64,000 bases of DNA from Escherichia coli (GTDB lineage: Bacteria; Pseudomonadota; Gammaproteobacteria; Enterobacterales; Enterobacteriaceae). The notes under the pieces were generated by a model. The model did no database searches and was not told where the DNA came from. It worked only from the letters and a program-made list of their open reading frames with translations. Positions 6,079 to 11,847 of the stretch are shown here, piece by piece. The stretch lies in assembly GCF_003019035.1 (NCBI RefSeq), contig NZ_CP027447.1; one strand, 5' to 3'. The stretch's first letter is position 1, and each line of letters starts with the position of its first letter. Made by a program: the position numbers and the translations under genes.

Positions 6079-6104
6079 TCTGACCATTAGCGGTTTTGCG
6101 TTAA

Positions 6105-6599
6105 TCAAAACAGCCCTTTAACGGAGCTGGCCGCGCTGTTAAGGGATGATGTGACCTTATCTTTGAAGCCGGACAGCATATCACTGAACGATGAGGATTG
6201 CAGGCGCTCCCGCAAATCCTCATCACAGCGTTCAAGAGTCAGTGAAAATTCTATCTTTTTCGCCTTACCGTAGCGATCAAACTCGGAGCGGGTCGTATTC
6301 GTTTCAGTCAGTACATACATGCCGTAAATCTGCCCGACACCATCAATCAGAGGCCAGGGGCGTCCTGTATATGCCTGCGTGGTCAGCAGCGAAAGCGACA
6401 CTTCGCCACCTGTAATTTCAGGATAAAGCACGCCAGAAAGCACGATGCGATCATCACCTGCACCGATATACTGCCAGCTTGCTGAGCGGTTTACGCGCTC
6501 ATTTTTCACATGCCGCCAGCTTTTGTTTTGCTGTAACTGCTGATGCGGCAGTGTGCGCAGCTCAAAAACAAACATGCCGTAGATCATCATCATGACCAT
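6105..6599 (-). CDS. P2-like tail protein U
   Basis: ~160-aa ORF directly downstream of the tape-measure gene on the minus strand; N-terminal region resembles P2 gpU. Confidence 0.6.
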   Translation of the reverse strand: MVMMMIYGMFVFELRTLPHQQLQQNKSWRHVKNERVNRSASWQYIGAGDDRIVLSGVLYPEITGGEVSLSLLTTQAYTGRPWPLIDGVGQIYGMYVLTETNTTRSEFDRYGKAKKIEFSLTLERCDEDLRERLQSSSFSDMLSGFKDKVTSSLNSAASSVKGLF

Positions 6600-6605
6600 G
6601 ACTCC

Positions 6606-9993: not shown

Positions 9994-10506
9994 TCAGCCA
10001 AGCCCAAGCGCGGAACGGATACGGTCAGGCACAATGTCCTTGCCGTCCTTCCGGTAGATGTGGTTCAACAGGTCGATTTCCCACAGCGGGCGATCGTTAA
10101 CGCTCAGCTTGTAGTAGGTGTTTTTGACAGCGTAAGTGTGTGATGTGGCTTCGCCCTGTTTGGCTTCCCCCATATCAATTTCCGTCACACGCCCGCGCAT
10201 CTCGATTTCATACAGATCGCTTTCTGCATCGGTGTAGTATTCACCCGCAAAACGCAGCAGCGTGCCGTCAATCGTGCCGCCATATTTAAGGAACAGCGCA
10301 CGAACAGCTCCCCCCATGACAAAACTCGCATCAAGCGCGGAGTCGTCCAGACCGAGATCAATACTTACCGCCCCCATCATGCCACCACCACGATAGCTGT
10401 CGGTTTTGCGCGTCAGTTTGGGCGGCGTGACGGATGTCACTTTGCCCACTTCGTTTTCACCATCCACAAACAACGTAAAAAAGCGAAGATGTTTTGGTAC
10501 AGCCAT
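9994..10506 (-). CDS. Tail tube protein (P2 gpFII-like)
   Basis: 170-aa ORF, SD GGGAGG, start overlaps sheath stop (TGATG); size and position between sheath and chaperone. Confidence 0.8.
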   Translation of the reverse strand: MAVPKHLRFFTLFVDGENEVGKVTSVTPPKLTRKTDSYRGGGMMGAVSIDLGLDDSALDASFVMGGAVRALFLKYGGTIDGTLLRFAGEYYTDAESDLYEIEMRGRVTEIDMGEAKQGEATSHTYAVKNTYYKLSVNDRPLWEIDLLNHIYRKDGKDIVPDRIRSALGLG

Positions 10507-11690
10507 CAGGCACCTCCCAGCACCGCAAATGCGGGACCAAAGAATTCATCAGTAAACGTCTGGTAAAGCTCCATGTCTTCCAGTGGCGGAACGGGCGTAT
10601 ATTTGTAGCGAATACGCACACGTCCCTGACGTAAATTCGTGGTGCCGTTATCCACCACGTCATACCAGCACTCCGCACCAATCAGTTTCCCGGCAGTAAC
10701 CAGCGAATCCAGTTTTGCCCTGATGGCACTGATAACATCCTTCACGTTCGCAGGCGTCAGTGGACTGTCGATGGTTTCAAACTGCGCTTCCGCAATTGAA
10801 TCAGCCAGCACCTGTGCGGTTCGGGTATACACCTCAAAGATGTAGGCGTTCGTTTCCGGTGTGCGGTTGCCCCAGAAGCGGAACCCGTTGCGACGAATAA
10901 TGGTCGTGATTTCTTTGTTGTTGAGGCTGTTGGCATCGCTGTCTTCGGCCTGCAACGACCAGAACACATGCCTGGACATTCCCAGCACATTTTTAACCGG
11001 AACGTTGGACAGCGATTTGTGCCAGCCCTGCTCATGGTCAATGTACGCACGAAGACCGCACGCATAAGCAGGCGCGGGGAACGTTTCGTTTTTGCCACTT
11101 TTCGGGTTGTAGGCGATGAAGTCAGGCCATAAGAGCATCACCTCACGTTCGTTGAATTTCTGGCGGTAGGTAATCGCCTCAGCCATCGTGTTACAGCCGT
11201 GACATGAGGCATACACAAACGCGCGCAGTTTACCCGCAATCACGCACAGGGATTTTGTTACCGCCTCCGTGTCCAGCTCCGGCGCGGCCAGAATACGCGG
11301 ACGGTATCCGATGCTTTCATCCTGCTCTGCAACAAGCAGCGCATACATCCCCGTATAGCTGCCGTCAGATTCAGAACCACCGATAACCAGTTGATCCTGC
11401 GTTTTTCCGTCTTCTTCTTTGTGTTCAGCCACGCGAACGACGATCACCTTTGTGCTCACCTGGTCTGCGATGGCCTTAAGCGCACGATAAAGCGTCCCCG
11501 TTGTTCCGCATTTTCCCAGCACGTCATTGACGCGGGTCAGCAGTGTGGGCTTGTTCAGCGGGAACAGCTTCGCGTCCGCATCATCCGCCGTTGCCACGAT
11601 ACCGATAACGCTGGAATCAACATCGTTAATCGCTGTTACCAGGTCGGTATTTTCCGTAACACGGGCACCATGAAAACGAGTTTCACTCAT
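10506..11690 (-). CDS. Contractile tail sheath protein (P2 gpFI-like)
   Basis: 394-aa ORF first in the FI-FII-E-T-U order. Confidence 0.8.
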   Translation of the reverse strand: MSETRFHGARVTENTDLVTAINDVDSSVIGIVATADDADAKLFPLNKPTLLTRVNDVLGKCGTTGTLYRALKAIADQVSTKVIVVRVAEHKEEDGKTQDQLVIGGSESDGSYTGMYALLVAEQDESIGYRPRILAAPELDTEAVTKSLCVIAGKLRAFVYASCHGCNTMAEAITYRQKFNEREVMLLWPDFIAYNPKSGKNETFPAPAYACGLRAYIDHEQGWHKSLSNVPVKNVLGMSRHVFWSLQAEDSDANSLNNKEITTIIRRNGFRFWGNRTPETNAYIFEVYTRTAQVLADSIAEAQFETIDSPLTPANVKDVISAIRAKLDSLVTAGKLIGAECWYDVVDNGTTNLRQGRVRIRYKYTPVPPLEDMELYQTFTDEFFGPAFAVLGGA

Positions 11691-11847
11691 AGCTTCAGCC
11701 CCTTGTATCCGTTAAATGATTCGGCAACAATCATCACCCACCACGCGCGTAATCTCACCCCTGCGCCGTTCTCCCGACCCGGCGACAACAAAAAGCAGTA
11801 ACCCCCTCCGCACGCACATGCGACCATGCCGCACAGGGAGGGAACAG

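What the first reader, a model, noticed from the sequence alone, without database searches (positions are those of the whole stretch)
6079..11847. Tail sheath-tube-chaperone-tape measure-U block is inverted relative to H and D/ogr (non-canonical P2 gene order)
Established knowledge: in P2 the late genes run ...J-I-H-G then FI-FII-E-E'-T-U-D-ogr on one strand. Seen in sequence: J, I, H, D and ogr are on the + strand, but FI-FII-E/E'-T-U (11690 down to 6105) are on the - strand. D diverges from FI across a 157-bp intergenic region (11691..11847), and U converges on the invertase gene with only a 26-bp hairpin-containing spacer. Inference: either an ancient inversion of the F operon (possibly mediated by secondary invertase sites) or a distinct lineage architecture. 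It uncouples D from the FI promoter and may mark this element as a rearranged or defective prophage, or a tailocin-like remnant.
Basis: partly seen in the sequence, partly recalled or inferred. Interest (0 to 1): 0.45.

Follow-up and report, generated by a model that had tools for sequence, protein, structure and literature searches.

The report
Normal gene order of P88-like prophages
The "inverted" tail sheath-to-U gene block is real, but it is the fixed, normal layout of a common, fully functional branch of P2-like phages (the P88 group), found in about a fifth of complete E. coli genomes, so it is ordinary and not a sign of a switch, an assembly error or decay.

Summary
Observation confirmed. 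FI-FII-E/E'-T-U lie on the minus strand at 11690-6105. I, H, the invertase, D and ogr are on the plus strand. The FI/D gap is 157 bp, and a 26-bp spacer with a hairpin separates the invertase from U.

The layout is not an oddity of this element. The window is an E. coli P88-like prophage between pdxB and flk. Plaque-forming phages P88, PhiSM and SEN4/5 have the same layout, as do five more phage lineages. About 48 of 534 phage records with an FI homologue show it, and 1106 of 5426 complete E. coli genomes carry it collinearly. P2, Fels-2, ENT90 and vB_YenM_42.18 keep the canonical order. FI, FII, U and D trees each group the inverted phages in one clade, pointing to one ancient inversion.

The block is not a switch. 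The invertase's six crossover sites all lie in the tail-fibre region (1963-5430). The block boundaries have no such sites and no inverted repeats. SEN5 and others lack an invertase. None of 1414 E. coli genomes holding these genes has a P2-like U-D junction.

Inferred mechanism: the FI/D gap is a two-way late promoter with one shared Ogr-type site (TCT-N12-ACA, 11770-11787), laid out like P2's pP/pO. Interest is low.

The parts
1..250 (+). 3' end of baseplate gene J, cut by the window edge
   Evidence: Collinear with P88 and 500465-2 from window base 1. J ends 8 nt into I in 500465-2.
243..851 (+). Gene I (tail/baseplate protein)
   Evidence: Pfam Tail_P2_I, E 4e-53. The start was set by comparison with the 500465-2 annotation.
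848..2353 (+). Gene H (tail fibre); the C-terminal cassette now attached to it is frameshifted
   Evidence: Pfam Phage_tail_fib, Phage_fiber_2 and Collar. The frameshift is shown.
1963..5430 (.). Tail-fibre multiple-inversion region: six invertase crossover sites (2 in + and 4 in - orientation), six alternative H C-terminal cassettes and one tail-fibre assembly gene (2904-3515, -)
   Evidence: Repeats. Core motif found. The site PWM gives +43 to +59 bits at these six places only.
5479..6078 (+). Serine DNA invertase (Gin/Cin/Hin type)
   Evidence: Pfam Resolvase + HTH_7. The 600-bp gene matches the annotation in strain HCM-28C-2.
6068..6097 (.). Hairpin (12-bp stem, 6-nt loop, A-run and T-run on its flanks) between the converging invertase and U genes; probable two-way terminator ending the F operon
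   Evidence: Equivalent strong hairpins sit at the same junction in 7 relatives.
6105..6599 (-). Gene U (tail protein)
   Evidence: Pfam Phage_P2_GpU, E 6e-39. 99% identical to P88 U.
6606..9413 (-). Gene T (tape measure); the ORF stays open up to 9449
   Evidence: Pfam PhageMin_Tail. 94% identical to P88 T. The start was set by comparison with the P88 annotation.
9400..9621 (-). E' extension, reached by a -1 frameshift at the slippery heptamer AAATTTT (9621-9615)
   Evidence: Pfam Phage_P2_GpE, E 2e-12, on the ORF 9400-9636. The heptamer was read in frame. The frameshift itself is inferred by analogy with P2 E/E' (annotation).
9564..9938 (-). Gene E (tail assembly chaperone)
   Evidence: Weak Pfam Phage_TAC_7 hit. 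75% identical to P88 E.
9994..10506 (-). Gene FII (tail tube)
   Evidence: Pfam Phage_tube, E 2e-45.
10506..11690 (-). Gene FI (tail sheath)
   Evidence: Pfam Phage_sheath_1, Gp18_domIII_N and Phage_sheath_1C. 98-99% identical to the P88 group and 45% to P2.
11691..11847 (.). FI/D divergent intergenic region: proposed two-way late promoter
   Evidence: Its length is 153-157 bp in all 7 clade members, with conserved blocks. It holds no sigma-70-like promoter.
11730..11735 (-). Proposed -10 element of the FI promoter (GATGAT on the minus strand)
   Evidence: It sits ~55 nt from the centre of the activator site. GATGAT, GATTAT, GAATAT or AATGAT occupy the same place in all clade members. Inferred, not measured.
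11770..11787 (.). Proposed shared Ogr-type activator site TCT-N12-ACA (TTCT-N12-ACAA), centred 88 nt from the FI start codon and 69 nt from the D start codon
   Evidence: It is the positional homologue of perfect TTGT-N12-ACAA dyads in 3LV2017, KSP20 and SEN5. The same variant is in the P/O gap of P88 and phiT5282H. P2 annotates one shared site for pP/pO.
11822..11827 (+). Proposed -10 element of the D promoter (GACCAT)
   Evidence: It sits ~55 nt from the site centre. AACCAT, GAATCA or GACGAT occupy the same place in relatives, and GCCATC in the P/O gap on the O side. Inferred.
11848..12957 (+). Gene D (baseplate hub / 'late control D')
   Evidence: Pfam Phage_GPD. Homologues align from residue 1 of this 369-aa form.
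13000..13260 (+). ogr-like late activator gene (zinc finger CX2CX24CX4C)
   Evidence: Pfam Ogr_Delta, E 5e-14. Cysteine spacing read from the translation.

Best explanation
The window carries the right half of a P88-like (Xuanwuvirus/Gemsvirus-type) P2-family prophage, inserted between pdxB and flk in E. coli. In this branch of the Peduoviridae the FI-FII-E/E'-T-U tail operon points the opposite way from the rest of the late genes. This is a fixed, inherited layout that arose once, by an inversion whose ends lay between U and D and just upstream of the old F promoter. It is not flipped by the neighbouring invertase, which acts only on the tail-fibre cassettes.

Inferred mechanism: the inversion carried the F promoter and its dyad-type Ogr binding site next to D. 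The 157-bp FI/D gap now works like P2's pP/pO region. One activator site (TCT-N12-ACA, 11770-11787) lies about 55 bp from two diverging, activator-dependent promoters. One drives FI to U leftward, ending at the hairpin at 6068-6097. The other drives D, and probably ogr, rightward.

Shown here: gene identities, orientation, distribution, single-clade origin, absence of recombination sites and of flipped variants, and positional conservation of the promoter elements. Inferred: the transcription start sites, Ogr binding and dependence, and terminator function.
For: Identity and order are shown. The window is 92-95% identical over 68% of its first 14 kb to 500465-2, PhiSM, P884B11 and P88.

The same order is seen in P88, 500465-2, SEN5, phiT5282H, 3LV2017, ST16-OXA48phi5.4 and KSP20. 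Every listed phage record with FI at least 55% identical, about 48 records, has FI and D adjacent and divergent.

The canonical order is kept in P2, Fels-2, vB_YenM_42.18 and ENT90. The inverted phages form one clade in FI, FII, U and D trees.

1106 of 5426 complete E. coli genomes hold invertase-U...FI-D-ogr as one collinear place. None of 1414 genomes with U or D sequence has a P2-like U-to-D junction.

Phages with this layout are functional (PMC5285337, PMC6456863, PMC5261728). A near-identical prophage at the same site has a full P2-type gene set.

For the promoter model: there is exactly one T[G/C]T-N12-ACA element per FI/D gap, centred 81-88 nt from the FI start and 68-76 nt from the D start in all 7 members, with -10-like hexamers at about +/-55. 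SEN5's perfect TTGT-N12-ACAA occurs exactly three times, in the P/O, S/V and FI/D gaps. P2's record annotates a single site serving pP and pO, with start sites 56 and 55 nt to either side. The distance from site to FI start (88 nt) resembles P2 pF (83 nt). No sigma-70-type promoter lies in the gap. Among the window, P88, 500465-2 and HCM-28C-2, base substitutions in the gap avoid the proposed elements, and two lie in the N12 spacer.
Against: In the window's own lineage the left half-site is TCT, not TGT. The loosened pattern T[CG]T-N12-ACAA is not rarer than chance genome-wide (8 hits in P88 against ~7 expected). For this lineage the promoter model therefore rests on positional homology, not on motif statistics.

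No transcription data were available. The -10 hexamers are weak matches.

The direction of evolution (canonical order ancestral) rests on four canonical relatives checked here plus general knowledge of contractile-tail gene order; it was not tested with a rooted phylogeny. The left ~22 kb of this particular prophage is outside the window, so its own completeness is unknown.
Confidence: 0.85

Rival explanations
1. The block is an invertible segment that the adjacent serine invertase flips through secondary hix/gix-like sites, switching tail gene expression.
For: An invertase gene ends 26 bp from U, and the invertase is clearly active on nearby DNA. Cassette arrangements differ between the window and strain HCM-28C-2.
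Against: A PWM built from the six real crossover sites scores +43 to +59 bits at those sites. At the two block boundaries the best scores are only -19 and -9 bits. No inverted repeat pairs the boundaries. SEN5, phiT5282H, 3LV2017 and ST16-OXA48phi5.4 have the same layout without an invertase. 1106 E. coli genomes have this orientation, and 0 of 1414 have the flipped junction. In the flipped state D would sit directly downstream of U as in P2, yet D here has its own conserved upstream region.
Confidence: 0.02
2. The reversed block marks a rearranged, defective prophage or a tailocin-like remnant.
For: The window shows only tail and regulatory genes, because the head and replication genes would lie left of base 1. 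The H cassette now in the expression position is frameshifted. Some E. coli copies are IS-disrupted or truncated, for example the O157:H7 rows at 76% coverage with IS30.
Against: The reversed block itself is shared with plaque-forming phages (PMC5285337, PMC6456863, PMC5261728). The operon is tight and intact, including the E/E' slippery site. A 99.3%-identical right end in HCM-28C-2 belongs to a prophage with integrase, repressor, cox, replication, portal, terminase, capsid, lysis and tail genes. The frameshifted H cassette can be swapped for any of five intact cassettes by inversion.
Confidence: 0.05
3. The layout arose not by in-place inversion but by replacement: a foreign sheath-to-U module was acquired and inserted in reverse orientation.
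For: P2-like genomes are mosaic. I and H are much closer to P2 (61-74% identity) than the F-block genes are (33-46%).
Against: D and ogr lie outside the block and are as far from P2 (49% and 38%) as the block genes are. The D tree has the same clade structure as the FI, FII and U trees. So the block and its right-hand neighbour share a history. The I/H similarity is better explained by later exchange of the fibre region.
Confidence: 0.07
4. Assembly error.
For: None beyond the unusual look relative to P2.
Against: The same junctions are present in over a thousand independently finished E. coli genomes and in independently sequenced phage genomes.
Confidence: 0.01

Closest known systems
Escherichia phage P88 (Xuanwuvirus), Escherichia phage 500465-2 (Gemsvirus) and Citrobacter phage PhiSM
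   Same: 92-95% nucleotide identity over the shared parts of window 1-14000. The gene order and strands are identical: I, H, fibre cassettes, invertase (+); U, T, E/E', FII, FI (-); D, ogr (+). The 157-bp FI/D gap is 97-99% identical, and the terminator hairpin is the same.
   Different: The tail-fibre C-terminal cassettes differ in number and content: six crossover sites here, fewer annotated cassettes in P88. Cargo after D/ogr also differs: com plus a methyltransferase here, and a 1-kb ORF between D and ogr in 500465-2.
Bacteriophage P2 F operon (pF-FI-FII-E-E'-T-U-D, then ogr)
   Same: The same eight genes occur in the same internal order, with the E/E' frameshift, an Ogr-family activator just downstream of D, and an activator site ~83-88 nt upstream of FI.
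   Different: In P2 all are on one strand, D is the last gene of the operon and overlaps U, and the operon follows G/Z(fun) head-to-tail. Here FI-U is reversed, D is a separate unit, and protein identities are only 33-49%.
P2 pP/pO divergent late promoters with one shared activator-binding site
   Same: Two diverging late genes are separated by ~155-175 bp, with one TGT-N12-ACA-type element roughly midway, ~55 nt from each start site (P2 annotation). The FI/D gap has the same geometry, and the P/O gap of P88 and phiT5282H carries the same TCT-N12-ACAACAAAA variant.
   Different: The P2 start sites were determined experimentally and are annotated in the record. Those in the FI/D gap are only predicted. 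The left half-site here is TCT.
Gin/Cin/Hin/Min DNA inversion systems (Mu G segment, P1 C segment, p15B Min)
   Same: A serine invertase gene sits next to invertible tail-fibre C-terminal cassettes bounded by ~26-bp crossover sites. Having six sites resembles the multi-site Min system of p15B (from my own knowledge).
   Different: This system covers 1963-5430 only. The FI-U block is outside it and carries no sites.

Membership tests
P2-family (Peduoviridae) contractile tail module | Sheath FI, tube FII, chaperones E/E' with -1 frameshift, tape measure T, U, and hub protein D | tested here: met
   Pfam hits for every gene. The slippery AAATTTT lies in the E frame and leads into the GpE-domain ORF. 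tblastn to P2 gives 33-49% identity.
P2-family (Peduoviridae) contractile tail module | Ogr/Delta-type zinc-finger late activator next to D | tested here: met
   Pfam Ogr_Delta, E 5e-14. Four cysteines as CX2CX24CX4C, against CX2CX22CX4C reported for P2 Ogr (PMC3931495).
P2-family (Peduoviridae) contractile tail module | Canonical P2 order, with FI...U-D on the same strand as J-I-H | tested here: not met
   FI-U is on the minus strand; I, H and D are on the plus strand. The canonical order is a property of the type phage only. Searches show ICTV-classified Peduoviridae genera with the reversed order, so failing this does not exclude the element from the family.
P88-like lineage (Xuanwuvirus/Gemsvirus) | High nucleotide identity to P88 / 500465-2 with the same gene order | tested here: met
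   92-95% identity over 68% of window 1-14000. Proteins U, T, FII, FI, D and Ogr are 94-99% identical.
P88-like lineage (Xuanwuvirus/Gemsvirus) | Genus assignment by whole-genome nucleotide identity (ICTV criterion, about 70% over the full genome; from my own knowledge) | not testable with these tools
   About 22 kb of the prophage lies outside the window. A probable sister copy in HCM-28C-2 is complete.
Invertase-controlled invertible DNA segment (Gin/Cin/Hin type), as applied to the FI-U block | Crossover sites in inverted orientation at both ends of the segment | tested here: not met
   Best PWM scores at the boundaries are -19 and -9 bits, against +43 to +59 at real sites. No boundary inverted repeats.
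Invertase-controlled invertible DNA segment (Gin/Cin/Hin type), as applied to the FI-U block | Both orientations present in populations | tested here: not met
   0 of 1414 E. coli genomes have the flipped junction, and 1106 have this orientation.
R-type tailocin / defective tail-only element | Absence of head, packaging, replication and integration genes | not testable with these tools
   That part of the element lies left of window base 1. The closest full-length relative at the same chromosomal site has all of them.
Ogr-dependent P2 late promoter | TGT-N12-ACA element about 55 bp upstream of the start site, with a poor -35 | tested here: inconclusive
   The one-mismatch variant TCT-N12-ACA is at a conserved position with -10-like hexamers at +/-55. 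There is no exact TGT-N12-ACA in the gap. The loosened pattern is not statistically rare.
Ogr-dependent P2 late promoter | Transcription dependent on the activator | not testable with these tools
   Needs reporter or RNA 5'-end experiments.

The most novel reading that the evidence does not exclude
The ancestral inversion survived because P2-type activator sites are dyads that work in both directions. Carrying pF next to D created a second pP/pO-like two-way late promoter, in which one site drives both the FI-U operon and a new D(-ogr) unit. That site is the asymmetric TTCT-N12-ACAA variant found in the P88, phiT5282H and ST16-OXA48phi5.4 lineages, and may have co-evolved with their longer CX2CX24CX4C Ogr. 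I found no published description of this promoter architecture, but the key comparative paper (Casjens and Grose 2016) could not be read.
Probability: 0.55. Interest if true: 0.3.

Novelty: already known. Interest (0 to 1): 0.1.

Why it matters
For a genome scan the main value is negative. This gene order should not be flagged as a rearrangement, a defect or a tailocin signature. It is the standard layout of a prophage group present in about 20% of complete E. coli genomes, and of related phages of Klebsiella, Enterobacter, Serratia, Salmonella and Citrobacter.

There is a minor positive point. The conserved 153-157-bp FI/D gap gives a simple, testable example of how an operon inversion can be tolerated when an activator site is symmetric. 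It also explains why some database records that extend D (or FI) across this gap are probably mis-annotated.

Tried and rejected
1. I expected from memory that Fels-2 would share the reversed order. The record shows the canonical order, so Fels-2 serves as a canonical comparator instead.

2. An exact TGT-N12-ACA search of the window found 17 matches (16 expected) and none in the FI/D gap. The site only became visible after aligning distant clade members.

3. I tried to show that the relaxed motif T[CG]T-N12-ACAA is specific to late promoter regions in P88 and phiT5282H. It is not rarer than chance, so I do not use motif counts as evidence for this lineage. The perfect dyad in SEN5 is specific: three sites, all in late intergenic gaps.

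4. An inverted-repeat search across 5200-12200 returned only short, scattered pairs, none joining the two boundaries.

5. A generic sigma-70 scan found nothing in the FI/D gap. This fits activator-dependent promoters but is not positive evidence.

6. Literature searches for an explicit description of the reversed F block found none in the held library. Casjens and Grose 2016 (PMC4969182), the most likely place, is not held.

7. Rfam and tRNA scans of the window found only tRNA-Arg(CCU) at 45459-45533, and nothing in the block.
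Full report
**What is in the sequence.**
- Plus strand: the last ~250 bases of J, then I (243-851, Tail_P2_I), H (848-2353), a serine invertase (5479-6078), D (11848-12957, Phage_GPD) and an Ogr/Delta zinc-finger gene (13000-13260).
- Minus strand, as a tightly packed operon: FI (10506-11690), FII (9994-10506), E (9564-9938), T (6606-9413) and U (6105-6599).
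- The E' extension is reached from E through an in-frame slippery AAATTTT at 9621-9615. It carries the Phage_P2_GpE domain.
- The FI/D gap (11691-11847) is 157 bp and the invertase/U spacer (6079-6104) is 26 bp, as stated.
- A 12-bp-stem hairpin at 6068-6097 overlaps the last 11 bases of the invertase gene. It folds well on both strands: -16.9 and -15.6 kcal/mol, and none of 200 shuffles does as well.

**Where the window comes from.** Nearly all complete E. coli genomes match the window from base ~14884 onward, covering pdxB/flk/yfcJ. The element is therefore a prophage between pdxB and flk, with its right end near 14884. Strain HCM-28C-2 has a 99.3%-identical right end. Its prophage there has integrase, repressor, cox, replication, partition, portal, terminase, capsid, lysis and tail genes, and the same reversed F block. 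The first 14 kb of the window are 92-95% identical, over 68% of their length, to Escherichia phages 500465-2, P884B11 and P88 and to Citrobacter phage PhiSM.

**Is the order unusual?** It is unusual relative to P2. P2 has V-W-J-I-H-G, then FI-FII-E-E'-T-U-D-ogr on one strand. So do Fels-2 (I had remembered otherwise and was wrong), Yersinia phage vB_YenM_42.18 and Erwinia phage ENT90.

It is not unusual for this lineage. The following all have FI...U on the strand opposite to J-I-H, with D diverging from FI across 153-157 bp:
- P88 (Xuanwuvirus)
- 500465-2 (Gemsvirus)
- phiT5282H (Novemvirus)
- ST16-OXA48phi5.4 (Reipivirus)
- 3LV2017 (Reginaelenavirus)
- SEN4/5 (Senquatrovirus)
- Serratia phage KSP20

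In tblastn searches of 50,697 phage records, every listed record whose FI is at least 55% identical has FI and D adjacent on opposite strands. That is about 48 of 534 records with an FI homologue. Records checked below that level are canonical.

Neighbour-joining trees of FI, FII and U (inside the block) and of D (outside it) each place the eight reversed-order phages in one clade, apart from the four canonical ones. This points to one ancient inversion. The block and D are about equally distant from P2 (33-49%). That argues against a foreign module inserted backwards.

Among 5426 complete E. coli genomes, 1106 hold invertase-U...FI-D-ogr as one collinear stretch covering at least 80% of an 8-kb query.

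**Is it a switch?** No.
- The invertase has six crossover sites. All lie in the tail-fibre region (1963-5430), and all share the core AAACGTTGGTTTGGGG.
- A weight matrix built from them scores +43 to +59 bits at those six places. The next best place in the window scores under 7 bits. The two block boundaries reach only -19 and -9 bits.
- No inverted repeat links the boundaries.
- SEN5, phiT5282H, 3LV2017 and ST16-OXA48phi5.4 have the reversed block and no invertase at all.
- I built a chimeric query joining the 3' end of U directly to the 5' end of D, which is the junction a flipped, P2-like state would have. It found 1414 E. coli genomes matching one half or the other, and none matching across the junction.
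- By contrast, the fibre cassettes are arranged differently in the window and in HCM-28C-2. The invertase evidently works, but only there.

**Is it a sign of decay?** Not in itself.
- P88 was induced with mitomycin C, forms plaques and has a contractile tail (PMC5285337).
- PhiSM forms plaques and stable lysogens (PMC6456863).
- SEN4/5 is a produced myovirus (PMC5261728).
- The operon here has no disruptions.

One blemish was noticed. The H C-terminal cassette currently in the expression position is frameshifted. Five other cassettes are intact.

**How the reversed block is probably expressed (inference).** D can no longer be the last gene of the F operon, so it needs its own promoter. Aligning the FI/D gaps of the seven clade members shows three things:
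- Each gap has one T[G/C]T-N12-ACA element, centred 81-88 nt from the FI start codon and 68-76 nt from the D start codon.
- It is a perfect TTGT-N12-ACAA dyad in 3LV2017, KSP20 and SEN5. In the window, P88, phiT5282H and ST16-OXA48phi5.4 it is TTCT-N12-ACAA (or GTCT).
- About 55 nt to either side are -10-like hexamers. On the FI side they are GATGAT, GATTAT, GAATAT or AATGAT. On the D side they are GACCAT, AACCAT, GAATCA or GACGAT. There is no sigma-70 -35.

TGT-N12-ACA is the published consensus of the Ogr-dependent P2 late promoters (PMC3931495, citing Christie and Calendar 1985). In SEN5 the perfect dyad occurs exactly three times in 33.5 kb: in the P/O, S/V and FI/D gaps.

The P2 record itself annotates a single activator-binding site for the diverging pP and pO promoters, with start sites 56 and 55 nt on either side. 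The P/O gaps of P88 and phiT5282H carry the same TCT-N12-ACAACAAAA variant as their FI/D gaps. The distance from site to FI start (88 nt) is close to that of P2 pF (83 nt).

The simplest reading is this. The inversion had one end between U and D and the other just upstream of pF. It brought the symmetric pF activator site next to D, and a -10 element then arose on the D side. The FI/D gap became a second pP/pO-type two-way late promoter. The leftward transcript would end at the hairpin at 6068-6097. Equivalent hairpins sit at the same convergent junction in all relatives checked. The rightward transcript would cover D and probably ogr, which starts 42 bp further on.

**Limits of that inference.**
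- The relaxed motif is not rarer than chance in P88-type genomes (8 hits against ~7 expected).
- An exact TGT-N12-ACA search finds nothing in the window's gap. In this lineage the argument therefore rests on positional homology.
- It is supported by the near-invariance of the gap. Among the window, P88 and 500465-2, base substitutions avoid the proposed elements, and two of them fall in the N12 spacer.
- No transcript data were available.

**Comparison with what is known, and verdict.** The element is a member of the P88-like group of P2-family prophages. Its gene order is visible in annotated public genomes of characterised phages. I found no paper in the held library that spells out the reversal. 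The most likely source, Casjens and Grose 2016, could not be opened.

The invertase-mediated, defective-prophage and tailocin suggestions are not supported. The finding is ordinary, and interest is low. The only mildly new element is the proposed shared-site promoter, which is cheap to test.

Noticed in passing
window 1963-5430: A multi-site DNA inversion system. Six ~36-bp crossover sites (2 forward, 4 reverse) are each followed by a ~220-bp conserved stretch and a different tail-fibre C-terminal cassette (Collar domain, ending ...RPRNIAFNYIVRAA). Only one tail-fibre assembly gene (2904-3515, -) is present. The cassette arrangement differs in strain HCM-28C-2. This resembles the six-site Min system of plasmid p15B (from my own knowledge) more than the two-site Mu/P1 systems.
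   Followed up: partly
window 2290-2404: The H cassette now fused to the constant part of H is frameshifted. H stops at 2353 (...FAGLHEVMG*), while the conserved ending NYVTIRPRNIAFNYIVRAA continues in the +1 frame up to the next crossover site. In the present configuration the fibre protein is therefore probably truncated. Alternatively, this is a sequencing error.
   Followed up: partly
window 13452-14884: Cargo between ogr and the prophage end: a Hok/Gef toxin gene (13452-13592), a Mu Com-like zinc-ribbon gene (13842-14039) overlapping an N6/N4 DNA methyltransferase gene (13984-14775), and strong terminator-like hairpins at 13601-13624 and 13678-13705. Prophage-free E. coli genomes begin to match at ~14884. 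Phage 500465-2 carries different cargo at this site (zinc-ribbon and TagO-like genes).
   Followed up: partly
window 11716-11847; L002 13011-14252; L007 5397-6623; L009 15466-16764; L010 838-2268: Several database records start D (or FI) at an upstream in-frame codon, so the annotated gene runs across the conserved FI/D promoter gap. In KSP20 the annotated D even overlaps FI. Homology begins at the ATG at 11848 (the 369-aa D), which is preceded by GGGAGGG.
   Followed up: yes
L004 (P88) 19576-20789; L012 23297-24510: In the P88 group gene S abuts or overlaps V, and there is no orf30-type insert. The P2 pV promoter slot therefore seems absent, and the O operon may run uninterrupted from O to G (~11 kb). 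SEN5 keeps a perfect TTGT-N12-ACAA between S and V.
   Followed up: partly
window 13000-13260: The Ogr homologue is 86 aa with cysteines spaced CX2CX24CX4C, against CX2CX22CX4C reported for P2 Ogr. The lineages that carry it use TCT instead of TGT in the left half of the presumed binding site, in both the P/O and FI/D gaps.
   Followed up: partly
OR565851.1 (Citrobacter phage Shae_phiSM): The deposited annotation seems shifted by one gene. The FI match lies under a feature named 'late control gene D protein', and the D match under 'ogr'.
   Followed up: no
window 45459-45533 and surroundings (42-56 kb): tRNA-Arg(CCU) (argW), the only RNA gene found in the window. The distance from flk to this tRNA is ~3.6 kb longer than in strain HCM-28C-2. 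GC content drops to 0.39-0.43 at 42-44 kb and 50-56 kb, which suggests strain-specific island content near argW.
   Followed up: no
E. coli O157:H7 rows: O157:H7 strains carry a copy of this tail block covering only query positions 800-6894. It is interrupted by IS30/IS3-family elements and lacks most of D, so it looks like a decayed relative.
   Followed up: no
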